NCBI GenBank assembly: GCA_044892525.1
Contig: CM097885.1
Coordinates: forward strand, 3,350,001-3,414,000
Source of the DNA: Schmidtea polychroa
Lineage: Eukaryota
Direction of reading: 5' to 3'
DNA length: 64,000 bases
The translations under genes were made by a program, and so were the position numbers. Numbering within the stretch: position 1 is the first letter of the stretch; the number at the start of each line of letters is the position of its first letter. Shown in pieces: positions 31,018-62,568 of this stretch. The notes beneath the pieces are model-generated. The model had not been told where the DNA came from. It saw nothing but the letters and a program-made list of their open reading frames with translations, and did not search any database.

Positions 31018-31740
31018 ATGTCAGATAAATATTCAAGAAGTTTATTAATAAATTCAAATGAATCAGATTTTAGTATAAATTTTGAAGATTCAATAAATTT
31101 AGATCAAAATTTAAATTATGAATTAGGACTCTTGTGGTTTAGCTGCTTTAATACTATTTTTAATATAAATATTATTAATAATAAATTTGATATATTTAAG
31201 AGGGATATTAACCCCAAGTCAGTAGTTGAAGACCGCGAGACTATAGTAATCGAACCAGGATCATATGAAATAGTAGATTTAGCTAAAATAATTCCAAAAA
31301 AAACAAATGGAGCTGTAGAAATAAAAGCAGATATTCAAACTTCAAAATGTGTTGCAACTTTAAAAATTTATGGACTTGATGTTGATGCGTCTAGTTTCTT
31401 TCATACTATTTTAGGTTTTGAAGTCGGAAAATATAGACAATCACCTATTAAATCTAAAAATATTATACAAATAACAAATATAAATTCTATAAATATAGAG
31501 TGTGATTGTATAATGGGATCATACAATAATGGTAAACATGCAAATATTTTATATTCCTTTCCTTCCAATGTTGTTCGAGTTGGATATAAAATGGTTGAAA
31601 GAATGAATCCTCCAAATTATTTACCTTTATGTAGAAAAAACCTAATGGATATTCATTTTAGAATTGTTGATGAAAATGGAGAATTAATAAATTTTAATGG
31701 AGAAAAGATTTCAATGTGTTTACATTTGAAACAAGTTTAG
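31018..31740 (+). CDS. Minor capsid (penton-like) protein, element D
   Basis: YELGL..FNTIFNI, IEPGSYEI, INIECDCI.GSY.NG, YLPL..I.DENGELINFNGE motifs. Confidence 0.8.
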   Translation: MSDKYSRSLLINSNESDFSINFEDSINLDQNLNYELGLLWFSCFNTIFNINIINNKFDIFKRDINPKSVVEDRETIVIEPGSYEIVDLAKIIPKKTNGAVEIKADIQTSKCVATLKIYGLDVDASSFFHTILGFEVGKYRQSPIKSKNIIQITNINSINIECDCIMGSYNNGKHANILYSFPSNVVRVGYKMVERMNPPNYLPLCRKNLMDIHFRIVDENGELINFNGEKISMCLHLKQV

Positions 31741-31749
31741 ACTATAAAA

Positions 31750-32664
31750 ATGAATTATAATAAATTAGGATTATATAATGATGGATTAAAAGATGAAGAT
31801 GTTATAAACCTTACAGAAAAAAGATTTGTTAATGAAGTAGGAGATTCAATGAAGGGAGATTTAAATTTAAATGCTCACAAGATAAAAGATTTAGGTCCTC
31901 CGATTGATGACTTTGATGCAACTAATAAAAAATATGTAGATGAAAAACTTGAGTCTCTTAAATCGAGTAAGCTTAATAATATCGAACAACGATTAAATGA
32001 AGAAACTCAAAGGTTAACTGACACAATATCAATTTTAAAAAATAAAAGACTTATGCATAAACAACTTATGGATAATAAAATTAATACAATATATAATATA
32101 ATAAATGAGATGATTACATCATTTAATGTAAGACTTGTTAAATTAGAGTCTCATACAACACACATTAACACAACACACACTATTAGAAAAAGAGCTGCTG
32201 AATTAGAACAGAATAATACATTATTACCCAATAGATATAAACATTTTTTAGAACCAACTTTAATAATAACAAATAGTAAAGAATGGTCTTGTTTTATGGT
32301 TTTAAAGATTATTGATCCTTATTTCTTTTTATTTAATGATGATGATGAGACAATGAAATGGTTTGTAAAATGTGATTATAATAGTAAGTTTGAAAAGGAT
32401 GAAGTTATAATAACTGGTTATGATTTAACACATGGATATTGGCATGATAAAACTGATTCACATAAAATACATAAAGTTAAAAGTAAGAATATTATTTTTA
32501 AAAGCACACTTGTAAGTTATATAGATTTAATATTTTATGAAAAAAAGGTTGATGTTGATGAAGTTCGTAAAGCGTTGATAGAATTGTATAAAGATATTCT
32601 CTCAAAAAGAGCTTCTTATGATATTCGAGTGTTGGTACCAGATAATAAAGTCTTATTTTTTTAA
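31750..32664 (+). CDS. Fibre-like protein
   Basis: GDSMKGDLNL..HKI.DLG.P.DD.DATNKKYVD fibre motif followed by a coiled coil. Confidence 0.65.
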   Translation: MNYNKLGLYNDGLKDEDVINLTEKRFVNEVGDSMKGDLNLNAHKIKDLGPPIDDFDATNKKYVDEKLESLKSSKLNNIEQRLNEETQRLTDTISILKNKRLMHKQLMDNKINTIYNIINEMITSFNVRLVKLESHTTHINTTHTIRKRAAELEQNNTLLPNRYKHFLEPTLIITNSKEWSCFMVLKIIDPYFFLFNDDDETMKWFVKCDYNSKFEKDEVIITGYDLTHGYWHDKTDSHKIHKVKSKNIIFKSTLVSYIDLIFYEKKVDVDEVRKALIELYKDILSKRASYDIRVLVPDNKVLFF

Positions 32665-35035: not shown

Positions 35036-35141
35036 GAGTATTAATCTATATACTCCGAGTTTATCCGACAAAATATTTTATCCCCTTATGGGTAATGCTC
35101 ACAAGGGTATTATTAAACAAATCAACAAAACATACATTTAT

Positions 35142-35640
35142 TTAAACAATAAAATAATGTAAAATTAACAAAAGTAAACTAAATATTGATGTACTACTAT
35201 TCGCAGCATTATTGTTTGAAATTGGTAACGTCGAATTGATTTTCAGATATTCTATTGATCCTTTGATTGTTTGAATTTCTCTTAATAATAAAAATCTTTT
35301 TTAACAAATAATCATGCTTCTTATCAATAATTTTCATATTCTTTTTATTTTCAACAATAGAGTTATTGTAAACTTCAATATGATCAATCAATTTAATTTT
35401 TATATTTTGTATATATGCAAATGATAGTTCATAACTGTTTTCTAAATTCTCCAATCTTTGAGATATTCTTTTTCCTGGATGCTTTGACCATTTTGGTTTG
35501 TCGAGAATATATAAAATATCCATCAACTTGGCTGTATTCGGACAAACACATATTGATTTATTAAAAGACTCCACTGTTATTGTTGTATTGTGTGAGTACA
35601 CACTCGTTATAATAATTAGCAATATGAATATAGTTTTCAT
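35142..35640 (-). pseudogene. Secreted/GPI-like coiled-coil protein, frameshifted copy
   Basis: Matches 45758-46258 until a small deletion near 35295. Confidence 0.75.
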
Positions 35641-35745
35641 TGTGTATCAAATCAAAGCCTTTCTTTTACATTTATAGCCTATCAACCAATCAAAATCATA
35701 CGGTATTAGTATAAATAAAACATCATATTTAAAATCATTGTAGAA

Positions 35746-36260
35746 ATGTCTCATTTTATGGAAAATCTTTTATGCGAAATTATAAACAAGAACATTTTGG
35801 AAAGCCTGAGTTTCCTAGTGGACCGGACCGAAAAGATAATCGAAGGAAATCATATCGATTATCAGGATATGATCAATTCCGAGTGCCTGGAAACGAAAAA
35901 ATTCTATTTTCATAGGATTTTTAACTGCCTATGTGACGATGAGATGAATTGGACCCGAATACTAGTAGGGTTCGCTTATATGAAGATAATCATAGAAAAA
36001 AGTTTTTGGGACTCGGAACATTATTATCAGTGGTCTCAAGAAGTAATACTTTTATAATCTATATTTTATTAATATTTATGTTCTAGATAATCAAGTCAAA
36101 GTTTCAACCATGGATTGAAGCCAATGGCGGATGGGGCGTACTGAATCAACTCGCCAGAAATGCGAAGGAAATAGATCAACAGAAAATCAAATTTAAAAAC
36201 TATATAAAACTTGCAACAGGTGTTGCTATTTTTTATGTTTTATGCCGGTTTTTTAAATAA
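35746..36260 (+). CDS. Bcl-2 family protein; exons 35746-36042 and 36087-36260
   Basis: BH1 DDEMNWTRILVGFAY, BH2 PWIEANGGWG, hydrophobic tail; 44-nt GT-AG intron. Confidence 0.85.
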
Positions 36261-36337
36261 AAATTAATATAGTTATTTTGTTTGATTTTTAAATAAAAGT
36301 TTAAATAAGTTTACAAACAATAATTAACTAAAATTTA

Positions 36338-36735
36338 TTAATTAACACATTCACAGTCGTCATCTCCACATTTCATTATATTTTCAACGACATGATCAAT
36401 ACAATCATTCGTAATATTATCTTTAGGTTCATCTTTAGGTTCCTCTATAGGTTCCTCTATAGGTTCATCTATAGGTTCATCTATAGGTTCATAGATTTCC
36501 TCATCAATTTCTTGAGTATCAGTTTCTTGAGTTTCTTCATCATCATCAAATCCTGTATCTTGACTCTCAACTATCCATCCAATATTTAAGGCATTTGTAA
36601 TAGATAATATGTCCTCAATTTTCACACCAGCTATTTCTGCTAACTTTTCCAACAAAACGTTGATTAAAAATTCTAAATAATAAATAATTCGGTAATTAAT
36701 TAATCATGTTAACCTTTTTCTGCAGTCATTTTCAT
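36338..36735 (-). CDS. Small acidic protein with EPI(D/E) repeats, two exons
   Basis: Paralogue of 46956-47329 with two more repeat units. Confidence 0.7.
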
Positions 36736-36862
36736 CACTTTAAAGCTATATTTTAAGTTTGTTTATAGATTTTCTTTGTTAAATATGCATGTCATTTGCA
36801 TTTATGTTGCTATTAATAAAGAGAAAAAACAAATATGACTAATACATTTAATAAATATAACA

Positions 36863-37273
36863 TTAAAATATTTGTGATAGTCTAGCAGACATAATTTTCC
36901 AAATAGGAGAATATACATCATTATTATCAACTTTATATCCCTGGATTGCAATTGTTATATACCAATTTTCATTTTCTTTGAAAGCGATTTCATCAAAAGC
37001 ATCATAAAATCTTGCATATCTATTGTTGAACCAGGCATGTTGATTACATGATAGATTCGAATCTATCCGTTTAAAAACATCATCAATAGTTTTGACATCA
37101 ATCATTGAAAGCGTGCCGAATAAGAATTGAAATTTAGTTTGAATTAGCTTGACTGGTGCAACCAATTTCATATTGATTTCTTCTTTTAAAAAATACATTT
37201 TGTAGTTGTGGAACATTTGAACTGGTTGTACCATTTCTTTAGGTTTTTCGGTGCATGAAATTTTCTTGGTCAT
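36863..37273 (-). CDS. Hypothetical 136-aa protein
   Basis: Intact ORF conserved with 47456-47866. Confidence 0.75.
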   Translation of the reverse strand: MTKKISCTEKPKEMVQPVQMFHNYKMYFLKEEINMKLVAPVKLIQTKFQFLFGTLSMIDVKTIDDVFKRIDSNLSCNQHAWFNNRYARFYDAFDEIAFKENENWYITIAIQGYKVDNNDVYSPIWKIMSARLSQIF

Positions 37274-37629
37274 AGTGAATAATGATTAAATTGAAATGTT
37301 ACAGGGTTTTTATACCTTTGACTAATGCCTATCAACCAATCATATTATAGCATGTCTTTGTTTAAGTTTGCATGTCATTTGCATTAATGCTGCATTTATG
37401 TTCTATTAATGTGACATATTATTATAAATGTTTTATTATTAATGTTTTATTATTATTACTATTTCTATTATTATTTCTATTATTATTATTACTATTACTA
37501 TTTATATTATTATTTCTATTATTACTATTTCTATTATTATTATTTCTATTATTATTATTATTATTATTACTATTATTACTATTATTATTTATTACTATTT
37601 CAAATATAAAAAAAACACAAAAAATACAT

Positions 37630-38046
37630 TTATTGATATCCTAAATCAACCATCCGGGAGTAGTGAAACCTTCTCAGAGTTTTCACTAACTCCCATCCGA
37701 CATATCGCCGATATCGATCGGCACAACATGAGCATCCCATGATGCATTGATACTCCGGTTCCATTTGCTTCATGGTCCTGTTGATCTTTATATCCCATAA
37801 GACTTGATGGAATACCTCCATGATTCCAATTTGAGTTGAATAAAAAATCAAATCAGGGATGATTTCCGGTTCCCGATCCTTGATTACTTCAGCAATTTGA
37901 GGATAATAATATTTTATCCTATTGATCATGACTTCTAAATATTTTTCTAAAATAATAAATATAAAAAATGACAAAATAAAAATTTTAAATTTACCATAAT
38001 CGTCAATATCTTTCATCAGATTCGCGGCGCTCGGAATTTTGTACAT
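37630..38046 (-). CDS. Hypothetical protein with a CxxxCxCC motif; probable in-frame intron
   Basis: Paralogue of 48146-48563. Confidence 0.7.
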   Translation of the reverse strand: MYKIPSAANLMKDIDDYGKFKIFILSFFIFIILEKYLEVMINRIKYYYPQIAEVIKDREPEIIPDLIFYSTQIGIMEVFHQVLWDIKINRTMKQMEPEYQCIMGCSCCADRYRRYVGWELVKTLRRFHYSRMVDLGYQ

Positions 38047-38118
38047 AGTGAAATAAATGAATCCTAAACAAAAAACCGTTTGTTTAAATCAATCAATAAC
38101 CAATTAGAAATTAACCAA

Positions 38119-38556
38119 TTAGAAATCGACCAATGAAATTATCTCATTTCGAACATTGTCAACAAATTCTCTATACTCCAAATTTCTCAACCCCAACATG
38201 ACAACCTTTCCACTAGCAAACACGTTGACACATATAGGGTTATATTTTAATAGTCTTAGTGCCAGAAACAATTCCGGTTCAAACATACAATCATATTTTT
38301 TCGACATGTTATATAGATTGATACTATGTCCCATATCCATAGTAACGGTAATTGATTGGATTATAATATTATTTATTCGATATTGTAATTTATTAATATC
38401 CAAAGGTTTCTTACATCCCATGATTCTGCATTTACCAGTCTTGAAAAATATTATCGGATATTTCCCGCTTCTATCGATAATTTGCTGGGGTTTCCCTGGT
38501 GGGAACCTCATATTCGATACATCAAAATTTCCTCGATAATTTATATTTGCTAACAT
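38119..38556 (-). CDS. TATA-binding-protein-like, element A copy
   Basis: IFFKTGKCRIMG and FEPELFLAL..VFASGKVVMLG; the conserved Pro is Leu in this copy. Confidence 0.85.
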   Translation of the reverse strand: MLANINYRGNFDVSNMRFPPGKPQQIIDRSGKYPIIFFKTGKCRIMGCKKPLDINKLQYRINNIIIQSITVTMDMGHSINLYNMSKKYDCMFEPELFLALRLLKYNPICVNVFASGKVVMLGLRNLEYREFVDNVRNEIISLVDF

Positions 38557-38655
38557 TATTAAATCATTTATGAAAATTAGTCTTTATATACAAATTGAGC
38601 ACGAGTTCATTAAATCATCGAATATAAACAAATACACATTTATAAAATTTTTGAA

Positions 38656-39282
38656 ATGGAATTAAGAAATGATGCAATATACCAAATCGTTGGTCCGAGT
38701 GGTAGTGGAAAAACATTATTTGTTTGTAAATTACTAAAATCAAATTTATTCAAATCAAAATTCAACAGGATTTATTGGTATATGGGTGCGGATGAAGAAC
38801 ATGGATTAACTCAATCAAGTTTCTGTAAATTAAAAAACATGAAAATAGTAAAGGGATTCGATAAAAACTGGTCCAGCCGATTAAAGAAAGGTGATGTCAT
38901 TATTATCGATGATTTGTATCAAGAAGCTAATAAAGAAAAAGATTTTAATAATTTATTTACAAAGATCAGCAGACATGTCGGTGTAACAGTTATTTTCATA
39001 ACACAAAATCTATTTCATCAAGGTGGGGCACATCGAACACGTAATTTAAATGTACAATATTTAGTTATTTTCAAGAATCCTAGAGACGCAACAGTGATTG
39101 ATTTTCTTGCACGTCAAGCATACACTAACAATCGTAATTTTCTTATCAGTGCATTTCAAGATGCTACAAAAATACCTCATGGATATATATTTCTTGATTT
39201 CACACAACAATGTCCCGATGATTTACGAGTAAAAATAGATATTTTCAACCCAAAAGGTGCCATGGTTTATAAACAAAGTTGA
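38656..39282 (+). CDS. Packaging ATPase, element A
   Basis: GPSGSGKT, IIIDD, SRH..ITQN, FKNPRD. Confidence 0.93.
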   Translation: MELRNDAIYQIVGPSGSGKTLFVCKLLKSNLFKSKFNRIYWYMGADEEHGLTQSSFCKLKNMKIVKGFDKNWSSRLKKGDVIIIDDLYQEANKEKDFNNLFTKISRHVGVTVIFITQNLFHQGGAHRTRNLNVQYLVIFKNPRDATVIDFLARQAYTNNRNFLISAFQDATKIPHGYIFLDFTQQCPDDLRVKIDIFNPKGAMVYKQS

Positions 39283-39300
39283 AAACCTCTATGAATAATA

Positions 39301-39828
39301 ATGTTTCTAAAAGCAAGGGTGAAAAATATTAGGAAATTAAGAAAAAGTATTAGAAAGAGTATTAAAGTTCCAAAAGTTCCACCAACAACTAGTTATACAC
39401 CATCTAAAAAACTTGTAACTGAAAATTTCTCTGCAATGAATCTTATTTCGAAAAATCCTAAACCTAAACGTAAAACCCGTAAAACCCGTAAAACCGGTAA
39501 AAAAGTAGTTAGAAATCATCGCAGTTTTCCATTTTTTAATGCATTGTTAAAGGCCCCGAGTATGAAAAGAATGAATATATTGCAATCATTCCCAAATTTT
39601 GTTGTCGATGATTTACTCAATATTATACTTAAAGTAGTCAAAGGCAAAATTAAAATCAGTAAATCAAAAAAGCATTTATTGAGCAAACATAATAAACCAT
39701 TGTTATCTTTAGTAAATAATAAATATCGTAAGCAAATGAGGAAAATTATATATAAAAAACAAGGTGGATTTATTGGTGCATTGATACCTCTGGAATTATC
39801 ATTATTAGGTGGAGTTACACATTCATAA
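39301..39828 (+). CDS. Basic core protein, element A
   Basis: K/R-rich, C-terminal QGGFIGALIP. Confidence 0.7.
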   Translation: MFLKARVKNIRKLRKSIRKSIKVPKVPPTTSYTPSKKLVTENFSAMNLISKNPKPKRKTRKTRKTGKKVVRNHRSFPFFNALLKAPSMKRMNILQSFPNFVVDDLLNIILKVVKGKIKISKSKKHLLSKHNKPLLSLVNNKYRKQMRKIIYKKQGGFIGALIPLELSLLGGVTHS

Positions 39829-39889
39829 ACAATGGGTGCTAATCCTTCATTGCCCGACATTTAATTTAATTTTAAATCTTCTTGTTGTA

Positions 39890-40277
39890 ATGGAGAAGAT
39901 TTGGACGAACCCAGAAGACGAAGCCGGTTTCGGTGGAGTGGCAAAATTAAAGAAAAGAGTGCCGAATTCGAAAAAAGAAACCCAGAAGTGGTTATCAGAT
40001 CAGCTTGCGTACAGTTTGAACAAACCAATGCGGAAAAGATTTCCAACAAGAGCGTATAAAACATTTGGTATTGACGATTTATGGCAAATGGATTTGATGG
40101 AGATGATACCTTATTCGAAAATTAACAATGGGAATAAATATATTTTAACATGTATTAATGTATACAGCAGGTTTGCACGAGCAATACCAGTCAAGGCAAA
40201 ATCTGCAGAAGAAATGTCCAAGGCAATTAATATTTTATTTAAAGATGGACATCCTAATAACTTGCAAACAAATTTAG

Positions 40278-40356
<79 letters not shown>

Positions 40357-40357
40357 T
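39890..40357 (+). pseudogene. Truncated integrase; second catalytic Asp changed to Asn; sequence lost inside the (ATT)n intron
   Basis: QTNLG here versus QTDLG in element C; donor at 40278; no exon 2. Confidence 0.9.
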
Positions 40358-40890
40358 TAAATCCAGATTGGACCTGTTAGAAGCGACAAAAAAGAGAAAA
40401 AACAGTAGAGTAGATGGATTGGTCACCGCGAAAACCGGTCACCGCTGGATTTAAGTGTAACAATGTATAGGCAGAATTTAATTTTCTACAAAATGGCACA
40501 ATTACAATTTCAGTTTGTTTCTTTGTCTGTAATACACACATGCTTTTTCAATAAATTTGTATTTTTCCGCGTGGTTAACGTAATTTTCTTGGATTTTTAT
40601 TCATATAATATATAGATAAAATTTAATTTTCTATAAAATAGCTTGATTAAAATTTATGTATCTTGTTTTGTGTGTAATACACACATGTTTTTACAATAAA
40701 TTTCTATTTTTCATACATTTAACGTAATTTTCTTGAAATTTTATTCATATAATATATAGATAAAATTTAATTTTCTATAATTATAATTGGTTAAAAACTA
40801 TGTATCTTGTTTTGTGTATAATACACACATGTTTTCCTGATTTTTTTTTATTATTAATATTATTTTTAATTTTTTTTTTAAATATTAATA

Positions 40891-40957
<67 letters not shown>

Positions 40958-40996
40958 TAATATTAATAATATTAATAATAATAATAATAATAATAA

Positions 40997-41102
<106 letters not shown>

Positions 41103-41247
41103 TAAATAATAAAAATAATAAAAATAATAATAATAATGATAATAATAAAAATAATATTAATAATATTAATAATAATAATAATAATAATTATTATAATAAT
41201 AAAATAATAATAATAAAAGTAAAAATAATAAAAAATAATAATAATAA

Positions 41248-41291
<44 letters not shown>

Positions 41292-41333
41292 TAATAATAA
41301 TATAAATAATAAAAATAAAAATAATAAAAATAA

Positions 41334-41374
<41 letters not shown>

Positions 41375-41531
41375 TAAATAATAAAAATAATAATAATAAT
41401 AATAATAATAATGATAATAATAAAAATAATATTAATAATATAAATAATAATAATAATAATAATAGAAAAAAAATAATAAAAAAAAAATAATGATAATAAT
41501 AAAAAAAAATAATAATGATAATAATAATAAT

Positions 41532-41573
<42 letters not shown>

Positions 41574-41955
41574 GATAATATTAATAATATTAATAATAAT
41601 AAAATAATAATAATAATAATAGTAGTAATAATAATAATAATTTCTAAATAAAATAAGATTTTGAAGAAAACAATCATGGAAATATTGAAAATCATGAAAA
41701 TATTGAAAATAATCATGAAATTAATGCAAATTATGAAAATTTTAAATAAATCAACTTTAGTGTCAAAATGTGTTTTTAAAATATATTTAAGTTTTAAAAT
41801 ACCGCAACGTAATGTATTTATTCTTTTTCCTATTCCTTCCTTGATTTGATTGGACCGGAAAATATTCATTTTCTTTATAAGCAGTTACAATTTTCAAAAT
41901 CGTCACAATTAATTTTAAATTTTACAAATTTTCGACTAAAAAATTTCGATTAAAA

Positions 41956-44554: not shown

Positions 44555-45801
<1,247 letters not shown>

Positions 45802-46363
45802 TTGATGTACTACTATTTGCAGCAATATTGTTTGAAATTGGTAACGTTGAATTGATTTTCAGAGATTCTATTGATCCTTTGATTGTTTGAATTTCTCTTA
45901 ATAATAATTCAATCTTTTTTAACAAATAATCATGCTTCTTATCAATAATTTTCATATTCTTTTTATTTTCAGCAATGGAGTTATTGAAAACTTTAATATG
46001 ATGAATCAATTCAAATTTAATATTTTGTATATATTCAAATGATAGTTCATAACTGTTTTCTAAATTCTCCAATCTTTGAGATATTCTTTTTCCTGGATGC
46101 TTTGACCATTTTGGTTTGTCGAGAATATATAAAATATCCATCAACTTGGCTGTATTCGGACAAACACATATTGATTTATTAAAAGACTCCACTGTTATTG
46201 TTGTATTGTGTGAGCACACACTCGTTATAATAATTAGCAATATGAATATAGTTTTCATGGTGTATCAAATCAAAACCTTTCTTTTACATTTATAGCCTAT
46301 AAACCAATCAAAATCCTCCGGTATTAGTATAAATAAAACATCATATTTTAAATTATTGTAAAA

Positions 46364-46884
46364 ATGTCTCAATTTATGGAAAATCTTTTAAGAGAACTCG
46401 TCAACAGGAATATTATGGAAAGCATATGTTTCCTGGTCGATCGAACCGAAAAGGTCATAGAAGGTAATCACATTGATTATGAAGATGTGATCAATTCCGA
46501 TTGTCTGGAAACCAAAAAATTCTATTTTAATAGAATTTTTAACTGTCTATGCGACGATCAGATGAAGTGGACCCGAATACTAGTAGGGTTCGCTTATATG
46601 AAAATAATTATCGAAAGAAGTCTATGGGACTCAGAGCACTATTATCAGTGGTCTCAAGAAGTAATACTTTTATAATTTATATTTTATTAATATTTATTTT
46701 TTAGATAATCAAGTCAAAGTTCCAACCATGGATTGAAGCCAATGGCGGATGGGGCGTATTCAATCAACTCGCTAGAAATGCGAAGGAAATTGATGAGCAG
46801 AAAAGAAAATTTAAAAACTATGTAAAACTTGCAACAGGTGTTGCTATTTTGTATATTTTATCAAGATTTTTAAATAAAAATTAA
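46364..46884 (+). CDS. Bcl-2 family protein, 158 aa; exons 46364-46660 and 46705-46884
   Basis: BH1-like DDQMKWTRILVGFAY, BH2 PWIEANGGWGVF, tail anchor LATGVAILYILSRF; phase-0 GT-AG intron. Confidence 0.87.
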
Positions 46885-48636: not shown

Positions 48637-49074
48637 TTAGAAATCAACCAATGAAATTATCTCATTTCGAACATTGTCAACAAATTCTCTATACTCCAAA
48701 TTTCTCAACCCTAGCATGACAACCTTTCCACTAGCAAACACGTTGACACATATAGGGTTATATTTTAATAGTCTTAGTGCCGGAAACAATTCCGGTTCAA
48801 ACATACAATCACATTTTTTCGACATGTTATATAGATTGATAGTATATCCTATATCCATAGTAACGGTAATTGATTGGATTATAATATTTTTTATTCGATA
48901 TTGTAATTTATTAATATCCAAAGGTTTCTTACATCCCATGATTCGACACTTACCAGTCTTGAAAAATATTATCGGATATTTCCCGCTTCTATCGATAATT
49001 TGCTGGGGTTTCCCTGGTGGGAACCTCATATTCGATACATCAAAATTTCCTCGATAATTTATATTAGCTAACAT
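48637..49074 (-). CDS. Minimal TATA-binding-protein-like factor, 145 aa
   Basis: Two TBP half-repeats: LANINY..IFFKTGKCRIMGCK and IQSIT..INL..FEPELFPAL..VFASGKVVMLG. Confidence 0.88.
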   Translation of the reverse strand: MLANINYRGNFDVSNMRFPPGKPQQIIDRSGKYPIIFFKTGKCRIMGCKKPLDINKLQYRIKNIIIQSITVTMDIGYTINLYNMSKKCDCMFEPELFPALRLLKYNPICVNVFASGKVVMLGLRNLEYREFVDNVRNEIISLVDF

Positions 49075-49172: not shown

Positions 49173-49799
49173 ATGGAATTAAGAAATGATGCAGTATACC
49201 AAATCGTTGGTCCGAGTGGTAGTGGAAAAACATTATTTGTTTGTAAATTACTAAAATCAAATTTATTCAAATCAAAATTCAACAGGATTTATTGGCATAG
49301 GGGTGCTGATGAAGAACATGGATTAACTCAATCAAGTTTCTGTAAATTAAAAAACATGAAAATAGTAAAGGGATTCGATAAAAACTGGTCCAGCCGATTA
49401 AAGAAAGGTGATGTCATTATTATCGATGATTTGTATCAAGAAGCTAATAAAGAAAAAGATTTTAATAATTTATTTACAAAGATCAGCAGACATGTCGGTG
49501 TAACAGTTATTTTCATAACACAAAATCTATTTCATCAAGGTGGGGCACATCGAACACGTAATTTAAATGTACAATATTTAGTTATTTTCAAGAATCCTAG
49601 AGATGCAACAGTGATTGATTTTCTTGCACGTCAAGCATACCCTAATAATCGTAATTTTCTTATCAGTGCATTTCAAGATGCTACAAAAATACCTCATGGA
49701 TATATATTTCTTGATTTCACACAACAATGTCCCGATGATTTACGTGTAAAAACAGATATTTTCAACCCAAAAGGTGCCATGGTTTATAAACAAAGTTGA
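49173..49799 (+). CDS. A32-like packaging ATPase
   Basis: Walker A GPSGSGKT, Walker B IIIDD, SRH and ITQN motifs. Confidence 0.95.
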   Translation: MELRNDAVYQIVGPSGSGKTLFVCKLLKSNLFKSKFNRIYWHRGADEEHGLTQSSFCKLKNMKIVKGFDKNWSSRLKKGDVIIIDDLYQEANKEKDFNNLFTKISRHVGVTVIFITQNLFHQGGAHRTRNLNVQYLVIFKNPRDATVIDFLARQAYPNNRNFLISAFQDATKIPHGYIFLDFTQQCPDDLRVKTDIFNPKGAMVYKQS

Positions 49800-50406: not shown

Positions 50407-50794
50407 ATGGAGAAGATTTGGACGAACCCAGAAGACGAGGCCGGTTTCGGTGGAGTGGCAAAATTAAAGAGAAGAGTTCCGAATTCGAAAAAAGAAACCC
50501 AGAAGTGGTTATCAGATCAGCTTGCGTACAGTTTGAACAAACCAATGCGGAAAAGATTTCCAACAAGAGCGTATAAAACATTTGGTATTGACGATTTATG
50601 GCAAATGGATTTGATGGAGATGATACCTTATTCGAAAATTAACAATGGGAATAAATATATTTTAACATGTATTAATGTATACAGCAGGTTTGCACGAGCA
50701 ATACCGGTCAAGGCAAAATCTGCAGAAGAAATGTCCAAGGCAATTAATATTTTATTTAAAGATGGACATCCTAATAACTTGCAAACAGATTTAG

Positions 50795-50862
<68 letters not shown>

Positions 50863-50876
50863 ATTATTATTATTAA

Positions 50877-50919
<43 letters not shown>

Positions 50920-51549
50920 TTAGGTAAAGAATTCTACAATAGCAAAGTTAAGCAAATCCTCGATAAACTGAAAATAAATCATTACTCGGTACATTCTCAA
51001 TACAAAGCTGCCCATGTTGAAAGATTTAATCGAACATTGAGAGATAGATTAAAGAAATTGTTCGTGCATCAAGGTAATAAAAAATGGGTAAATGCTTTAC
51101 CCAAAATAATAACAAGTTATAATCATTCATCACATCGAGGACTGAATGGATTGAGACCGGTTGATATTACATCAAAAACATCATTATCTAAAAAATCTGT
51201 AAAAATTACAAAACCTAAATATAAAGTCGGTGATCATGTTAGAATTAGTAAAATTAGTGCATCACCATTTATTAAAAATTTTGATACAAATTGGAGTGAT
51301 GAAGTCTTTGTAATTTCAAAAATAAATACTAAACAGAATCCTGTAATGTATGTCATCAAAGACAATGATAATAATATTGTACAGGGGAAATTTTATGAGC
51401 AGGAATTACAAGTCATTCCTCCCCCAAAAGTATTTAGAATTCAAAAAATATTGAAAACTAAAAAGGTCGGTAAGGATAAACAATACTATATCAAATGGCA
51501 CGGTTATCAAAACCCGTCATGGATATCGTCAAAAGACCTAGTAAAATGA
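50407..51549 (+). CDS. Retroviral-like DDE integrase with C-terminal chromodomain; intron 50795-50923
   Basis: WQMDL, QTDLG|KEFYN after splicing, VERFNRTL, YKVGDHVRI; chromodomain IQKILK..YYIKWHGY..SW. Confidence 0.95.
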
Positions 51550-52550: not shown

Positions 52551-52911
52551 TTCGGATATTATTAGTATGTATAGTGGTAGCCAATCTGGCGGTGAATTAC
52601 CATATTTTATTGGTAAACAGTACGGATCAGGATGGTTGAGAACAATTGGTAGATTTGCACTTCCTATTCTTAAACGTATTGGTAGTTTTGGTATGAAAAC
52701 TGCTAAAGATGTTATTATGAATGAACAGAAAATATTACCATCTCTAAAATCAAATGCTTTAGCAGAATTAGGGAAAGTTTTACCCGGGGTTGCAGGTATG
52801 TTTCAAAAAGAAAAACCTCCAGCTCCAGCTCATGCTCCAAAACGTAAAAGACATGGAATATCACGTATAAACAAACGAATGAAAGGCCATGGAACTATAT
52901 TTGCAAAATGA
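52543..52911 (+). CDS. Small virion core/membrane-lytic-like protein
   Basis: QSGG, QYGSGW and amphipathic LRTIGRFALPILKRIG; lies directly upstream of the major capsid gene. Confidence 0.72.
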   Translation: MANSDIISMYSGSQSGGELPYFIGKQYGSGWLRTIGRFALPILKRIGSFGMKTAKDVIMNEQKILPSLKSNALAELGKVLPGVAGMFQKEKPPAPAHAPKRKRHGISRINKRMKGHGTIFAK

Positions 52912-54131
52912 TTTGTGGTAAATCTGAATTATGTATATTTGATAGACCGTCGCCCCAGGCTGTAATAGAATTTGGGGCGTTTGAGGAAGTTTTTCCAATG
53001 AATTCAATTACCGATAGTAGAAATGATATAGAGTTTTATATTAATGGTTCGCAAACTGAATATTTAGATTTGAACGATACTTTATTGACTGTTCAGATTA
53101 AGGTTGTAGATAAAGATAAAAAAGCTTTGGGTGATGCTGCTGATGCAATACCGAACAATTTCATGTTTCATACTCTTTTTAAAGATGCTGTGTTGGGATT
53201 TAATAATATCAAGATTGAAGGTGGTAATAATACATTCATTCACAAGGCTTTGATAGAAACTATTTTAAATTACAATTCCGATACTAAAAATACATGTCTT
53301 ACTCCAATGGGATATGCTGCAACCGACGATGAAAGAAAAAAGTGGATTAAAGGCTCAAAAACATTCACCATGTGTTCATCGTTACAACTCGATTTTATGG
53401 ATCAACCGAAATATTTGCTTCCAGGAGTTAATGTCCACATTCGATTGAAAAGATCCGATTCTGCACTAACTCTTACTAGTGCTACAGGTGCACCAATATG
53501 TCAATTAGTTGATGCAAAATTATTGGTGAGAAGAGTTCGAGTAGACCCCTCAGTATTAGCTGGTCATCAATTGGGTCTTAATTCAAAACATGCAATTTAT
53601 CCATTAAAAACAAAGGAAATTGTACAATTTGCTATTGCTAAAGGTGCTTCATCATTCTATAAAGAACAAATATTTGGTGACAGAAGAATGCCTAATTTTA
53701 TTCTGATAACATTTCAAAGTGAAGCACAATATAATGGATCATATACTGCGTCCAGCTCAATTTTCAAAAACTTTGGTGTTACATCATTGACTTTGTCGAA
53801 AAATACTGATTATAGAGAAACATATATTCAAGATTTCGAGAATGATAATTACTGTGCGACATATATGCAGAGTATTGTTAGAAATCTGGGTTATTTAGAT
53901 AAAAATTTGAATTGCGGAATAACTCTAGAAGATTTTAAAAGCAAATACCCATTTTTTACATTTGTTTTAGCCCCTGATTTTGATTTAAATCAAAGTCAAT
54001 TACCTCAAAATGGAAATTTACGACTGGATATAAAGTTTGCAAAAGCTATTACTGAACCAGTACATGTTATAATATATGGAGTATTTGAAAATGAAGTTCA
54101 AATTACTGCAAATAGAACTGTGTTGGTATAA
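52908..54131 (+). CDS. Major capsid protein
   Basis: KSELCIF start, YLDLNDT, HTLF, HKALIETILNY, QPKYLLPGV, GNLRLDIKF; 407 aa. Confidence 0.92.
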   Translation: MICGKSELCIFDRPSPQAVIEFGAFEEVFPMNSITDSRNDIEFYINGSQTEYLDLNDTLLTVQIKVVDKDKKALGDAADAIPNNFMFHTLFKDAVLGFNNIKIEGGNNTFIHKALIETILNYNSDTKNTCLTPMGYAATDDERKKWIKGSKTFTMCSSLQLDFMDQPKYLLPGVNVHIRLKRSDSALTLTSATGAPICQLVDAKLLVRRVRVDPSVLAGHQLGLNSKHAIYPLKTKEIVQFAIAKGASSFYKEQIFGDRRMPNFILITFQSEAQYNGSYTASSSIFKNFGVTSLTLSKNTDYRETYIQDFENDNYCATYMQSIVRNLGYLDKNLNCGITLEDFKSKYPFFTFVLAPDFDLNQSQLPQNGNLRLDIKFAKAITEPVHVIIYGVFENEVQITANRTVLV

Positions 54132-54158
54132 ATGTATATTGAAACATAAAAAGTTGTC

Positions 54159-54543
54159 ATGGAGTAAGTTGTTTTTTATACTCTGGATTTATTTAAGTAG
54201 TTCTGTTCAGGTCAATAAAATCGGAAAACAGATATTGGGAAATGAATTTGTTGGAGTTTTTCCTCTTGATAAAATTCCATATTTGAGCAATAATCAAGCA
54301 ATAATCGTCAATACTCATTCGTCACATCTTGGTGGAGAACATTGGATAGCTATATATATGAAACCTGGCAATATATTCGTGTTCGATCCTATGGGTTTTT
54401 ATTACCCGGCTTTGTTGATATCAAAACTACAAACAATGGGGAAACCTATTGTGTATAATAAAACTATGTTTCAAAATCCTTTGACCCAAACATGTGGTCA
54501 ACATTGTTTAGCTTGGTTATTGTACAAAAAATTTGATGTTTAA
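54159..54543 (+). CDS. Adenain-like maturation protease; probable intron 54164-54200
   Basis: GEHWIA, FDPMG, Q..TCGQHC catalytic motifs; ATGGA|GTAAGT..TAG| gives MDSVQVN. Confidence 0.9.
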
Positions 54544-56563: not shown

Positions 56564-57061
56564 TTGTTAATAGGTAGATTATACCCTCAATACTGTATGT
56601 CCTCACTTGGCCATTCAAATAAATGTCATAAGGATATGAAAAAATACTATGGCCATAAATTCTATGGCGTCAAGTACTATTTATGTCCCATATGCGAAAC
56701 TTGTCAGGACATAAAATATAAATCCTTTTTTAAGATACATAAAAGACATTTAAATCAATTTAGAATTAGTAAAAAACAGCTTTTTAGTATATTAAAAAGC
56801 AAACCAATACGAACAGTAGATAAAGCGCGACCTATACATAAGAAAACACAAAATAATAAAGCGCGACCTACACATAAGAAAACACAACATAATAATCCAT
56901 CCTTTGTTCCAAATTCGTCTGTGTTAAATTCACCTTCTATAAATAAACAAACTGCGATAAATTCAACGGTAATAAATCCTTCTGTGATAAGTTCTTCTGT
57001 GTTAAATTCAACTGTGATAAGTTCATCGGTAATAAATCCTTCTGTGATAAGTTCTTTTGTA

Positions 57062-57112
<51 letters not shown>

Positions 57113-60100
57113 CGGCCTGCTGTTAGTATTGGGTCTGGTGTTCCCTCAAAAATTACTAAAATTAATGATAACCCCATGTTTTATCAAGTAGGTGGTTCGG
57201 TCGATCTTGATGATGAACCAGAAATTGAAATCGATTTTAAGGGGGCACGAAAAAATTTAAGATTTGACGTTGAAAAGGATAATTTGGTTGAAATTTCCCT
57301 CACAAATAAGATTGTTGATAAATTAATTTCCGAAATGAAAGGAATGGGCACAGTCAAAATTCAGTTCACCATCCTCATCCAGTTTGAGAAAGATGGGGAA
57401 ATTAGAGATAATTTCTTCTCTAATAGCGCTGAAGTTTTTTCAGACACTTTTTTAATTAACGGTATTACAAAATTAAATAATAAAATAGAACGATTTACAT
57501 ATTTAGGGAGCGGATGGCGGGTAGTTAAAATTAAAGAGATTGATTTTATATTAAATAAATTTACAAATATAAATAGGTTAGCTGGCCATAGTTACATCCC
57601 CACACCTTCGGCTTTAAAAGCTAAGAAAGCAATATTAAACGTCAAAAACAACGACGATATGTGCTTTATATATAGTATATTAGCACTTTTAAAACGTGAC
57701 GAAGTACGCATGAATAACACCCGTGCTAGTACTTACCAAAAATATTTAGGTGAACTGAATTTTGACCCTATAGATGATTGCCCAATGAAATTATGCAATA
57801 TTCCTAAATTCGAGAGGAAAAATAAAGAATTAAATTTAGCAATAAATGTATTGACATATAGGAAAAGTCCAGCTAAGCCTATAGAACATCTAGATATAAA
57901 TTATGTACCCCATCATCCTCAATTAGACATCATTCACCGATCTAAGGTTATAGATGGTGAACCCCTATATTTATTGCTATTGGAAGACGGTGCTACTTTC
58001 CATTACACCGCAGTTTTTAATCTTAAAAAATTAATGAATTGCCACCCTAGTAATTCATGTAATATCCAAATTTGCGTAAACTGGTGCCCCCATTGCCTTA
58101 ATGGTTTCAGACACAGGAGTGCTTTTGACCTTCATGTAGACCTATGCCGTAAGAATCAGATAGGTACTACTTTATATACGCTCCCTAAAGAGAAAAATTT
58201 AATTTATAAAGATTATTCAAAAACAATAACCCCGCCATTCGTAATATATGCCGATTTTGAGGCAATTTTACCCGAAGATATTACCCACCATCAAAAACAC
58301 TTGCCAATAACAGCAGGCCTATTACTAATAAATAATTACACAAAAACAAAATTTTATTACGAGTTTGTTGGTGAAGATTGTGTGCTGTCTTTCTTACGTA
58401 AGGTGGAGGAAATTGCTGTCACAATTGTCCTGCCATATTACGATATTAATGGCCGAAGGCCTATGCAAACCTTGTCTTTCGCTGAAGATCGTGCTTTCTT
58501 TGATTCCAGGACCTGTTATCTCTGTAAAAAATTCATTCGTAGTAGAGTTAGGGATCATTGTCACTTCACAGGTAAGTATCTTGGTGCTGCCTGTAGGAAA
58601 TGTAATGTGTCTCGCAGAATTCAGAGACAGTTACCTGTTGTGTTCCACAATTTGAGGGGGTATGACCTCCATCATATTTTGAAGTATGGTTTAAATAATT
58701 TTCCTTCTTGGGAATTAAATATTATTCCAACCACTACGGAAAAATTTATCTCCCTCATCGCGTACATTAACAAATTGCCTGTTCGTTTTATTGACAGCAT
58801 GCAGTTTGTTAATTCATCACTTGCAAAAGCGGTTAAGACTCTTTCAGATCTGCCTTTAACTTCTTCTGTTTTTGATGGCGCAATTGTTCGCTCAAAAGGT
58901 ATCTTTCCTTATGACTTTGCTACATCTCTTGAGGTTCTGGAATCAACTCTTGAATTACCTCCTATTTGGGAATCGGTGTCTAATGATGAATATGAATTAG
59001 CCCAAGTTATTTGGACTCAACAAAATTGCAACAACATGTTAGATTACATGTTGACTTACCTTAAACTAGACGTATTTCTCCTTGCAGATTATTTTCAGCA
59101 ATTCCGTGAAAAGGCCATTGCATACAATGGTCTTGAACCTCTAAATTTCTATGGCATTCCCGGTATGTCATGGGCCTCAGCGCTTATGACATTAACGGAA
59201 CCCATAGAACTTTTACAGGACATGGAAATCTTTAATTTCTACGAAGGAGGAATACGGGGTGGGTTAACATTTGTTAACAAACATTATGTTGCAAGTTCTG
59301 AAGACACTGAACTCCTGTACATAGATATCAATAATTTGTATGGTTGGGCCTTAAGCCAAAATCTGCCTTATGCTGACTTTGTATGGGTGTATGATAATTT
59401 GGATTCTGTACTTTATGAATGTATGAATTCGGATATTGATAACCTTCCATATGGGTATACTATGGAAGTTGATATCGAAATTCCGGAATGTTTGCATGAT
59501 TTTTTAAATGACTTTCCTATTGCTCCGGAAAAGATGTGTCCACCGAACTCCAAAGTTGAGAAGTTGATGCTCACGCATTGGCCAAAGAAGAACCATGTTC
59601 TTCATTGGAGACTTCTTAAACTTTATCTTTCACTCGGTGTGAAGGTTGTTAAAATTTATCGAGCAGTTAAATTCACGCAAGCACCTATATTTAAACAATA
59701 TATTGACAAGAACACCACATTGAGAGCACAGTCAACCAGTGAGTTATATAGAGACTTGTTTAAGTTGTACAATAATAGCTTATACGGGAAATCCGTCGAG
59801 AATCTTAAAAAGCGGATGAATTTGAGACTATGCAATTCAGCTGAAAAGATGATTGTATATGCCTCAAAGCCGACTTTCAAGAAATCACTCAAAATTGATG
59901 ATGACTTGATTGCTGCACATCTGAAAAAGGATTCTATCTGTTTAGACAGACCTAGTTACATCGGTCAAACAGTTCTAGATCTGTCTAAACTGCGGATGTA
60001 CCAGCTCCAATATAATGAACTGGCGAAATATAGGATAGAATTTAATTGTGAGATAAATATCGTTGCCGGCGACACCGACTCCTTTTTCCTAGAGATAAAG

Positions 60101-60706
60101 AACTGTAAACTTCACACTCTTTTACCGGCAATGATAAGAGACAACCTTTTAGATACGTCGAATTACGATCCTGCTCATCCGTTGTACTCAAAGAGTTTGG
60201 ATTCGGTAATAGGAAAGTTTAAAGACGAGAGTAAAGGGCTGGGTTATCGCGAGTGGGTTTTCTTGCGCCCTAAGTGTTACAGTTTGTTAGGAGATAAGGA
60301 GACACTTAGGGCTAAAGGAGTTAAGTTAGACAAAACAGAGATAGGGCACCAGTCTTATTTAGACTGTTACAATAATAGTATAATATATTCAGTGCCACAA
60401 ACGAGGATAGGTACAAGAAACCACCAGCTCTTTACTTTTAAGAATAGGAAAATAGCCTTGTCGAACAACGATGACAAGAGGCTATGGGTGGGTCCTAATA
60501 CAAGTCTCGCATATGGGCATTATTTAGGAGTTGACAAAACTGATGATGATGGCCATGTATTTGACGGAGATGAACATGAAAATGGATATGTGGAGATAGG
60601 CCCACTTTTTGGAGGAATGAGCCCCAGTTTCGATGAGGGCGACGACTCAGATTCGAATACTGATATATGTGACACAGACATTGACGATATAATTTTGTCG
60701 GATTAA
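56564..60706 (+). CDS. Protein-primed family B DNA polymerase; true start uncertain
   Basis: Exonuclease YADFE, FHNLRGYD, YLKLDV; polymerase YIDINNLY, KLYNNSLYGK, GDTDS, KCY, KGV; Cys/His insert RDHCHFTG. Confidence 0.97.

Positions 60707-60965: not shown

Positions 60966-62568
<1,603 letters not shown>

What the first reader, a model, noticed from the sequence alone, without database searches (positions are those of the whole stretch)
46364..46884. Spliced Bcl-2 homologue missed by the ORF track
Seen: removing a 44-nt intron joins BH1 (D.MK/NWTRILVGF) to BH2 (WIEANGGW) and a hydrophobic tail anchor; the intron is at the same place in copy A. The canonical NWGR reads NWTR in A and KWTR in C. 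Known: adenoviruses, herpesviruses and poxviruses encode Bcl-2 mimics. Inference: an apoptosis modulator, which would fit a real infection cycle rather than pure transposition.
Basis: partly seen in the sequence, partly recalled or inferred. Interest (0 to 1): 0.86.

Follow-up and report, generated by a model that had tools for sequence, protein, structure and literature searches.

The report
Spliced Bcl-2 gene in planarian Maverick
A virus-like Maverick transposon in a planarian genome carries a small two-exon gene for a Bcl-2-type cell-death regulator that resembles the worm's own Bcl2-like gene, so the element probably manipulates host cell survival; related animal elements are already known to carry such genes.

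Summary
Exon 1 (46364-46660, 99 aa), a 44-nt GT..AG intron (46661-46704) and exon 2 (46705-46884, 59 aa plus stop) give a 158-aa tail-anchored protein. Copy A (35746-36260) has the same structure.

Splicing is supported by comparison only, with no RNA data. Splice sites are conserved while intron length varies from 30 to 63 nt across subfamilies. Both exons are under purifying selection (dN/dS 0.05-0.15). The spliced product aligns without a gap over 146 aa to the Schmidtea mediterranea "Bcl2-like protein" (E 1e-22).

Bcl-2 family membership rests on sequence. Read-through subfamily copies pass Pfam's cut-off (34.6 and 33.1 against 31.4 bits), and all 60 PDB hits shown are Bcl-xL, A1 or Bcl-2. 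The two AlphaFold models are poor (pLDDT 65-66) and the fold searches are inconclusive.

The gene lies about 560 bp inside the left terminal inverted repeat of an ~18-kb Maverick/Polinton. At least 150 near-identical copies exist genome-wide. A diverged Maverick family carries an intronless version beside the same neighbouring genes.

An anti-apoptotic role is inferred, not shown. Bcl2 homologues in adintoviruses and a BCL2-like motif in planarian Burro retroelements are already in print, so this is a new member of a known kind.

The parts
46327..46335 (+). TATA-like motif GTATAAATA, 28 nt upstream of the ATG. The surrounding TAGTATAAATAA is identical in all 7 aligned subfamily copies.
   Evidence: 10 matches in the window against 2.99 expected; 0 of 100 shuffles reach 10
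46364..46660 (+). Exon 1, 99 codons (helices alpha1 to early alpha6 by the models). Pfam Bcl-2 profile positions 12-65.
46562..46576 (+). BH1 core, MKWTR (canonical NWGR). Trp and Arg are kept and Gly is replaced by Thr.
46661..46704 (+). 44-nt GT..AG intron, 93% A+T. It is not a multiple of 3 and carries in-frame stops.
46705..46884 (+). Exon 2, 59 codons plus TAA. Pfam Bcl-2 profile positions 86-100.
46729..46752 (+). BH2 motif WIEANGGW
46828..46872 (+). Hydrophobic C-terminal segment (aa 141-155) flanked by basic residues; a putative tail anchor.
46873..46878 (+). AATAAA overlapping the last codons; a possible polyadenylation signal (inferred).
   Evidence: conserved in the alignment
35746..36260 (+). 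Copy A of the same gene: exon 1 35746-36042, 44-nt intron 36043-36086, exon 2 36087-36260 (156 aa, 83% identical to copy C).
44704..45806 (.). Left terminal inverted repeat of element C, containing ~210-230-bp tandem repeats. The gene starts about 560 bp inside it.
61044..62420 (.). Right terminal inverted repeat of element C, 98-100% complementary to the left arm.
48637..49074 (-). Element-encoded TBP-like protein (145 aa). It neighbours the Bcl-2 gene in both Maverick families.
50407..51549 (+). Integrase-like ORF. Pfam rve scores 25.8 bits, below the 32.6 cut-off; it also has a chromo-like C-terminus.
54076..54543 (+). Adenovirus-type cysteine protease (Peptidase_C5, 27.0 bits, cut-off 21.3).
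56597..60706 (+). 1369-aa ORF whose relative in another copy also matches the window's pPolB fragment (62908-63609, DNA_pol_B_2 40.7 bits).

Best explanation
This is an intact, two-exon gene of an ~18-kb Maverick/Polinton (adintovirus-like) element in a planarian genome. The host is Schmidtea mediterranea or a very close relative.

Transcription probably starts just downstream of a conserved TATA box. A 44-nt spliceosomal intron is removed, and the 158-aa product is a tail-anchored Bcl-2-family protein whose closest named relative is the host's own 'Bcl2-like protein'.

The most likely function is that of a viral Bcl-2 mimic. Anchored in the mitochondrial outer membrane or ER, it would hold host BH3-bearing death factors in its BH1/BH2 groove. 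That would keep the cell alive while the element is expressed, replicated or packaged.

What is shown: the gene structure, its conservation and selection, its place in the element, and family membership by sequence. What is inferred: that it is spliced in vivo, its localisation, and that it is anti- rather than pro-apoptotic. My odds are about 0.9 for the gene model and family, and about 0.6 for the anti-apoptotic function.
For: Gene model:
- GT/AG and the flanking codons are conserved in all 7 aligned copies. Intron length is 30, 44, 45, 48, 51, 54, 60 or 63 nt in different copies, so the two exons are in different frames in some subfamilies and in the same frame in others. In the same-frame copies a TAG in the acceptor blocks read-through.
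- dN/dS between subfamilies is 0.05-0.15 over 9 informative pairs.
- The spliced product is collinear with intronless relatives across the junction. Against the L042 ORF: E 2e-15 spliced versus 1e-7 for exon 1 alone. Against metagenome protein P0003: profile E 3.5e-8 in 1.84 billion proteins. Against S. mediterranea Bcl2-like protein P0010: E 9.9e-23, 146 aa, 0 gaps, tail included.
- An HMM of the three closest relatives scores the spliced form at 65.0 bits, the unspliced form at 36.5, exon 1 at 34.1 and exon 2 at 20.0.

Family:
- Pfam Bcl-2 hits both exons collinearly: 16.7 bits at profile 12-65 and 12.2 bits at 86-100.
- Read-through (TAG=X) of subfamily copies L046 and L047 scores 34.6 and 33.1 bits against the 31.4 cut-off.
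- The family profile against PDB sequences gives only Bcl-xL, A1/Bfl-1 or Bcl-2 among the 60 shown, best E 6.8e-5.
- Foldseek's listed rows for the model are all Bcl-2 family, with probability up to 1.00.

Element:
- The TIRs are 98-100% complementary.
- Protease, A32-type ATPase, integrase-like, pPolB-like and TBP-like genes are present.
- All 150 scored exon-1 matches in the genome are at least 95% identical, and 149 of them have no stop.
- 29 of 30 fetched copies keep the 297/44/180 structure. The other 29 are 96.7-99.8% identical in DNA to the first.
- A second Maverick family shares 34-78% protein identity with this one and has an intronless Bcl-2 ORF beside the same neighbours.

Function:
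- The protein is far closer to the host Bcl2-like protein (E 1e-22) than to host Bcl2-2 (2e-4), Bok-1 (0.04) or Bok-2 (0.07).
- Planarian bcl2-1 is described as an anti-apoptotic factor whose inhibition causes systemic cell death (PMC6970515, passage).
- Polintons are transcribed and piRNA-repressed in this species (PMC8532177, passages).
Against: - No RNA evidence for transcription or for the junction was obtained.
- The window's own exons each score below Pfam's cut-off. The exact spliced protein could not be given to Pfam or to the folding tool.
- Both models are of low confidence, with pLDDT 66.4 (pTM 0.48) and 64.7. Foldseek's best E-values are 6.7e-3 and 0.29, with TM at most 0.45.
- BFVD gave no match at E <= 0.001.
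- The BH1 glycine is replaced by Thr. By recall, that glycine matters for partner binding in Bcl-2 and Bcl-xL.
- That UniProt C9WPR4 is the published bcl2-1 is my inference, not a tool result.
- The family is isolated: only 3 hits at E <= 0.001 among 1.84 billion representatives.
- Bcl-2 folds can be pro-death or serve other pathways, and sequence alone cannot decide.
Confidence: 0.7

Rival explanations
1. The protein has a Bcl-2 fold but acts outside mitochondrial apoptosis, for example on autophagy, ER calcium or innate immune signalling. Many poxviral Bcl-2-like proteins work this way (established knowledge, recalled).
For: The BH1 glycine is replaced in all Maverick copies and in their closest relatives. 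The family is very isolated in sequence space, with 3 hits at E <= 0.001 among 1.84 billion. Nothing tested here bears on binding partners.
Against: BH2 is canonical (WIEANGGW), and the BH1 Trp and Arg plus a tail anchor are kept. The nearest relative is a host Bcl2-like protein with a gap-free alignment. The poxviral immune-modulating proteins have, by recall, lost recognisable BH motifs, unlike this one.
Confidence: 0.13
2. The protein is pro-death: a Bax/Bak/Bok-like effector or sensitiser that kills the cell, for example to release particles.
For: Multi-BH proteins with a tail anchor include the effectors. Foldseek and VIA lists also contain Bax, Bak and BOK chains.
Against: BLASTP to host Bok-1 and Bok-2 gives E 0.04 and 0.07, against 1e-22 to the host Bcl2-like protein. 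The 60 best PDB sequence hits are Bcl-xL, A1 or Bcl-2, with no Bax or Bak among them. A constitutive killer in thousands of transcribable copies would be costly to the element's host (inference).
Confidence: 0.08
3. The gene is a passenger: a host gene picked up by chance that does nothing for the element and is decaying.
For: Its closest named relative is a host gene. It sits in the variable region next to the TIR, where the neighbouring ORF evolves almost neutrally between copies A and C (omega 0.80).
Against: dN/dS is 0.05-0.15 between subfamilies that are 66-83% identical. A Bcl-2 gene sits in the same position in a second Maverick family at about 25% protein identity. Promoter, splice sites and stop are conserved. 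149 of 150 scored exon-1 copies are open.
Confidence: 0.05
4. There is no splicing. The two ORFs are separate or the gene is broken, and only a 103-aa exon-1 product (or nothing) is made.
For: The only database proteins at 99% identity are exon-1 read-through ORFs (P0001, 103 aa). No spliced form is in the protein collection in the 54-174 aa range. No RNA data were obtained.
Against: See the gene-model evidence: conserved GT..AG with variable length and frame relation, selection on exon 2 as well, and gap-free collinearity with intronless homologues and with the host's spliced protein. The collection's ORF calls on such DNA are bacterial-style, so a missing spliced form says little.
Confidence: 0.04

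Closest known systems
Bcl2 homologues of adintoviruses (animal Polinton/Maverick-like viruses), Starrett et al. 2021, PMC8502044
   Same: An accessory Bcl-2-family gene in an animal element with pPolB, integrase, adenain-type protease and packaging ATPase. [quoted passage not shown] 'Bcl2' labels appear on maps in Supplementary Fig S2 (3 occurrences in the file, 2 shown).
   Different: I found no flatworm or Schmidtea in that paper's text or in the supplement held (0 occurrences). The gene here has an intron, is present in at least 150 near-identical genomic copies, and can be tied to a specific host paralogue.
Schmidtea mediterranea 'Bcl2-like protein' (UniProt C9WPR4 = P0010; probably the published anti-apoptotic bcl2-1, which is my inference)
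   Same: 26% identity over 146 aa with no gap, E 9.9e-23, from alpha1 to the tail anchor. It shares the non-canonical BH1 (IRWSR versus MKWTR) and the same alpha5-BH2 spacing.
   Different: The host gene is single-copy in this search and has a ~3-kb intron directly after the BH2 GGW, which by recall is the canonical Bcl-2 family position. The Maverick gene has no intron there and instead has a 44-nt intron 16 codons before that point. That pattern is consistent with capture of a processed transcript followed by intron gain in one lineage (inference).
BCL2-like motif of Burro giant Gypsy-like LTR retroelements of planarians (Grohme et al. 2018 as cited in Arkhipova and Yushenova 2019, PMC6431247)
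   Same: Same genome, and a mobile element carrying a Bcl-2-like domain (passages). I saw it in L053 at 23.9 bits, inside a gag / Bcl-2-like / glycoprotein / PR-RT polyprotein.
   Different: There it is a domain inside a polyprotein of roughly 3000-5000 aa in a retroelement. It forms a separate, strongly supported clade (100/99). Here it is a free-standing spliced gene with its own promoter in a DNA element.
Viral Bcl-2 homologues of gammaherpesviruses, iridoviruses and ASFV A179L
   Different: None of these matches is significant. No specific relationship is shown, and their anti-apoptotic activity is known from experiments whereas here it is inferred.

Membership tests
Bcl-2 family (Pfam PF00452) | Profile match above Pfam's gathering score (31.4 bits) | tested here: met
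   Met for subfamily copies read through the in-frame intron with X at the stop: L046 34.6 bits and L047 33.1 bits, profile 6-100. The window's own exons taken singly score 16.7 and 12.2 bits, below the cut-off but collinear. The window's spliced protein was not given to Pfam. A home-made HMM of 10 canonical Bcl-2 proteins gives it 27.4 bits, E 3.9e-7 among 2239 targets, against 12.0 for the best shuffle.
Bcl-2 family | BH2 motif (W-x-x-x-N-G-G-W) | tested here: met
   WIEANGGW at aa 108-115. It aligns to WIQENGGW of Bcl-xL.
Bcl-2 family | BH1 motif (N-W-G-R) | tested here: inconclusive
   KWTR in copy C and NWTR in copy A: Trp and Arg kept, Gly replaced by Thr. The host Bcl2-like protein has RWSR and P0003 has KWSQ, so the whole subgroup deviates.
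Bcl-2 family | Globular all-helical bundle around a central hairpin (alpha5-alpha6) | tested here: inconclusive
Bcl-2 family | C-terminal membrane anchor (present in most members) | tested here: met
   The hydrophobic 15-mer at aa 141-155 has mean KD 1.81 and is flanked by K, R and K. It aligns to the tail of the host protein.
Bcl-2 family | Binding of BH3 helices in the groove; effect on cell death | not testable with these tools
   Needs binding and cell-death assays.
Maverick/Polinton (adintovirus-like) element | Terminal inverted repeats | tested here: met
   Arms 44704-45806 and 61044-62420 are 98-100% complementary.
Maverick/Polinton | [quoted passage not shown] | tested here: inconclusive
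   The 1369-aa ORF at 56597-60706 has no Pfam polymerase hit. Its 59%-identical relative in L079 also matches the window fragment 62908-63609 (58.5% over 176 aa), and that fragment hits DNA_pol_B_2 at 40.7 bits.
Maverick/Polinton | Retroviral-type (rve) integrase | tested here: inconclusive
   For 50407-51549, rve scores 25.8 bits (E 1.3e-5), below the 32.6 cut-off.
Maverick/Polinton | Adenovirus-type protease and A32/FtsK-type packaging ATPase | tested here: met
   Peptidase_C5 scores 27.0 bits (cut-off 21.3) at 54076-54543. Pox_A32 scores 30.3 bits (cut-off 22.8) at 49173-49799.
Maverick/Polinton | Double jelly-roll major capsid protein | tested here: inconclusive
   No Pfam hit for the ORFs of element C (52908-54131: 0 families). 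DJR-like_dom at 87.7 bits is found only in the neighbouring element at 25777-27048. BLASTP between the two gives E 0.067.

The most novel reading that the evidence does not exclude
A still-active planarian Maverick virus took a processed copy of the host's essential anti-apoptotic bcl2-like gene, and one lineage later gained a new 44-nt intron. The protein keeps cells alive while the element replicates. With Burro retroelements carrying their own Bcl-2-like domain, two unrelated mobile elements in planarians would have converged on blocking cell death. Derepression of thousands of intact copies, for example on PIWI loss or during differentiation, would then measurably alter planarian cell turnover.
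Probability: 0.2. Interest if true: 0.7.

Novelty: new member of a known kind. Interest (0 to 1): 0.45.

Why it matters
Whether Mavericks/Polintons of animals behave as viruses with a cellular infection programme is still open. A conserved, selected host-manipulation gene argues for more than cut-and-paste transposition.

Planarians allow RNAi, have a described Bcl-2 network, and silence Polintons through piRNAs. The function of a Maverick-borne Bcl-2 could therefore be tested directly in them.

The case also gives a dated example of gene flow between host and element, with different intron positions in the host and element copies. It shows as well that bacterial-style ORF tracks miss small spliced accessory genes in such elements.

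The idea itself is not new. Bcl2 homologues are reported for adintoviruses, and a BCL2-like motif is reported for planarian Burro elements.

Tried and rejected
- Complex prediction on the two exon products (alignments A3 and A4) was not available.
- Folding: the exact spliced protein is not accepted by the folding tool, so I used a read-through of copy L046 (76% identical to the window's protein, with a 15-residue intron-coded insertion) and the window's exon 1 alone. Both gave weak models. The searches that followed are inconclusive: Foldseek PDB found no E <= 0.001, VIA-wide did not put the Bcl-2 family on top, and BFVD found no E <= 0.001.
- Word-based protein searches found few relatives: 1 with exon 1, 7 with alignment A2, and 1 with L042.
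- The tree of 17 Bcl-2-like proteins does not resolve deep nodes (support 48/9), so it cannot show donor or direction.
- The search of earlier findings returned nothing.
- Grohme et al. 2018 is not held. I know its Burro BCL2 remark only through PMC6431247.
- Literature searches for a Maverick/Polinton Bcl-2 in planarians found none. The adintovirus statement was found only by reading PMC8502044.
- Considered and rejected: that the host Bcl2-like gene is a domesticated Maverick gene. It is unlikely, because the host gene has the family's canonical BH2 intron (the canonical position is recalled), but it is not excluded.

Full report
**Observation.**
An ATG at 46364 opens a 99-codon frame that ends at 46660. 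Positions 46661-46704 begin with GT and end with AG (44 nt, 93% A+T). From 46705 a second frame of 59 codons runs to a TAA at 46882-46884. The ORF list shows the two pieces as separate ORFs in different frames. Joined, they give 158 aa with MKWTRILVGF (BH1-like), PWIEANGGW (BH2) and a hydrophobic C-terminus (aa 141-155, mean hydropathy 1.81). A second copy in the window, at 35746-36260, has the same exon/intron structure and reads MNWTR.

**Is the intron real?**
I could get no RNA evidence. The case therefore rests on comparison, which is strong.

- In an alignment of seven copies from five subfamilies, GTAA at the 5' end and TTTAG/TTCTAG at the 3' end are conserved together with the flanking codons.
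- The length between them is 30, 44, 45, 48, 51, 54, 60 or 63 nt in different copies. In the 44-nt forms the exons are in different frames. In the others they share a frame, but the acceptor's TAG stops read-through.
- Both exons are under purifying selection. dN/dS is 0.05-0.15 in the nine informative pairs, and for copies A and C dN is 0.077 and dS 0.554. For several pairs dS exceeds 1.6 and is saturated.
- Removing the intron gives a protein collinear with intronless relatives exactly across the junction (alignment). BLASTP of the spliced form to the ORF in L042 gives E 2e-15, against 1e-7 for exon 1 alone.
- An HMM of the three nearest relatives scores the spliced form at 65.0 bits, the unspliced form at 36.5, exon 1 at 34.1 and exon 2 at 20.0.
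- Against the full-length S. mediterranea 'Bcl2-like protein' (P0010) the alignment covers 146 residues with no gap (E 9.9e-23).
- A scan of the whole element for similar short A+T-rich GT..AG segments between long open frames found only this one.

**Is it a Bcl-2 protein?**
By sequence, yes.

- Pfam's Bcl-2 model matches both exons in the right order, at 16.7 bits (profile 12-65) and 12.2 bits (profile 86-100). Each is below the 31.4-bit cut-off.
- Subfamily copies whose intron happens to be in frame, read through with X at the stop, score 34.6 and 33.1 bits over profile 6-100. That is above the cut-off despite the inserted residues (the genome-wide Pfam scan found the same copies).
- A profile of the family searched against PDB sequences returned 137 sequences at E <= 10. 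The 60 shown are all Bcl-xL, A1/Bfl-1 or Bcl-2, with best E 6.8e-5. That profile included the intron-coded columns.
- An HMM made only from 10 canonical Bcl-2 proteins gives the window's spliced protein 27.4 bits (E 3.9e-7 among 2239 targets). The best of 2000 shuffles scores 12.0.

The family is isolated. Among 1.84 billion representative proteins only three reach E <= 0.001: an exon-1 ORF, P0003 (166 aa, intronless, from a metagenome; Pfam Bcl-2 45.3 bits) and P0004.

**Structure: inconclusive.**

- A read-through of copy L046 gave pLDDT 66.4 and pTM 0.48, with the intron-coded residues modelled as a longer alpha6.
- Foldseek's listed rows for it are all Bcl-2 family (Bcl-xL, Bax, schistosome Bcl-2), with probability up to 1.00. 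The best E is 6.7e-3 and TM is at most 0.45.
- The window's exon 1 alone gave pLDDT 64.7 and non-significant Bcl-2 family rows (best E 0.29).
- BFVD's top two rows are a gammaherpesvirus F9 protein and an iridescent-virus BCL2-like protein (E 0.034 and 0.086).

**Context.**
The window holds pieces of Maverick/Polinton elements. The copy with the finding is bounded by inverted repeats at 44704-45806 and 61044-62420, which are 98-100% complementary, so it is about 18 kb long. The Bcl-2 gene starts about 560 bp inside the left repeat.

Further in lie:
- a TBP-like gene;
- an A32-type ATPase;
- an integrase-like ORF (below Pfam's cut-off);
- an adenovirus-type protease;
- a 1369-aa ORF related to a pPolB fragment.

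I could not confirm a capsid gene in this copy. The only DJR match is in the neighbouring element at 25777-27048. Copy A (35099-40360) is a truncated second copy, 92.5-95% identical to copy C.

**Host and copy number.**
The assembly has 781 Mb in 1012 contigs. An ORF in it is 100% identical (192 of 192 aa) to S. mediterranea Bcl2-2, and it contains Burro-type polyproteins as described for that species (PMC6431247, passages). The host is therefore S. mediterranea or a very close relative.

Exon 1 has 2369 first-look candidates. All 150 scored are at least 95% identical, and 149 have no stop. Of 30 fetched copies, 29 keep the 297/44/180-nt structure and one has a premature stop in exon 2. The other 29 are 96.7-99.8% identical in DNA to the first over 1.8-3.3 kb. 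This points to recent amplification.

**Relatives and origin.**
A second, diverged Maverick family (34-78% protein identity to this one) has an intronless 144/152-aa Bcl-2 ORF (Pfam 32.7 bits) beside the same neighbours, the TBP-like gene and the 136-aa ORF. The gene is therefore an old component of these elements.

The closest named cellular protein is the host's Bcl2-like protein. Its locus (L042/L078) has a ~3-kb intron directly after GGW of BH2, which by recall is the family's canonical intron position. The Maverick genes have no intron there. This fits capture of a processed host transcript and later gain of the 44-nt intron in one lineage. The tree does not resolve direction.

**Function (inferred).**
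The protein is much closer to the host Bcl2-like protein (E 1e-22) than to host Bcl2-2, Bok-1 or Bok-2 (E 2e-4, 0.04, 0.07). Planarian bcl2-1 is described as an anti-apoptotic factor whose loss causes systemic cell death (PMC6970515 and PMC4993586, passages). That the UniProt entry is bcl2-1 is my inference.

Polintons are transcribed in planarians, repressed by SMEDWI-2 piRNAs and de-silenced during differentiation (PMC8532177, passages). I therefore think the element uses a tail-anchored Bcl-2 mimic to keep the cell alive while it is active. The Gly-to-Thr change in BH1, shared in kind with the host relative (Ser), leaves the binding specificity open.

**Known or new.**
Starrett et al. 2021 state that adintovirus homologues of Bcl2 and IAP were observed (PMC8502044, passage; 'Bcl2' labels in Supplementary Fig S2). 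Burro retroelements of planarians carry a BCL2-like motif. My searches found no report of a Bcl-2 gene in planarian Mavericks. Supplements of other papers and papers in subscription journals were not seen. This is a new member of a known kind, with some instructive details: the intron, the host paralogue, and two element classes carrying such genes in one genome.

Noticed in passing
window 35746-36260 vs 46364-46884 and neighbours: Between copies A and C the Bcl-2 exons are far more diverged at synonymous sites (dS 0.554; CDS 408/477 identical) than four of the five neighbouring genes compared (dS 0.03-0.11; the left ORF 0.17). The gene's own intron (41/44) and 5' region (97/105) are also better conserved. 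Recombination of a variable left-end module, or constraint on the tiny intron and promoter, may explain it. It remains unexplained.
   Followed up: partly
window 48637-49074 (-) and 38119-38556 (-); TATA motifs at 44790, 45002, 45236, 61646, 61880, 62092, 62326, 46327, 35709: The element encodes a 145-aa TBP-like protein (Pfam TBP 53.2 bits). The motif GTATAAATA is over-represented, with 10 matches against 2.99 expected. It sits in each tandem repeat unit of both TIRs and before the Bcl-2 gene. The element may bring its own TATA-binding factor.
   Followed up: partly
L053 (G000:C1:6413985-6423984), ORF 2775-9998: A Burro-type polyprotein contains a zinc knuckle, a Bcl-2-like domain (23.9 bits, below the cut-off), a Monjiviricetes-type fusion glycoprotein (302.8 bits), a protease, RT and RNase H in one frame. 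Dozens of ~3050-aa open frames appear genome-wide. This agrees with PMC6431247.
   Followed up: partly
L043, L044, L067-L069; L079/L080 (G000:C1:15396000-15415499): A second Maverick family has an intronless 144/152-aa Bcl-2 ORF beside TBP-like and ORF136 homologues. A search with the host-like L042 protein gave 2188 first-look candidates and 141 matches at E <= 1e-5 with 22-56% identity. Many Bcl-2-bearing element families therefore exist.
   Followed up: partly
L042 / L078 57-512 and 3455-3580: The host Bcl2-like locus is only 87% identical (127/146) to the UniProt S. mediterranea entry in exon 1 and 93% in exon 2, whereas Bcl2-2 is 100% identical. This could be a strain or allele difference, or a paralogue.
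   Followed up: no
window 25777-32664: A neighbouring Maverick-like element has a DJR capsid protein (87.7 bits), a protein with a parvovirus-type phospholipase A2-like domain (33.1 bits, 27064-27843), an A32 ATPase on the minus strand, and a weak adenovirus core protein X-like hit (29256-29780).
   Followed up: no
window 5167-6935 and 40879-41656: Two long tandem-repeat arrays are present, at 84-90% and 87-88% self-similarity. The second abuts the truncation point of copy A, in a 15% G+C stretch.
   Followed up: no
window 17244-17984 (-): An ORF with a proteasome subunit domain (74 bits) is present. It is probably an exon of a host gene.
   Followed up: no
window 46364 vs 46376: The TATA motif ends only 28 nt before the first ATG. 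Copies A and C have a second in-frame ATG at codon 5, but other subfamilies do not. The true start and the 5' UTR length are open.
   Followed up: no
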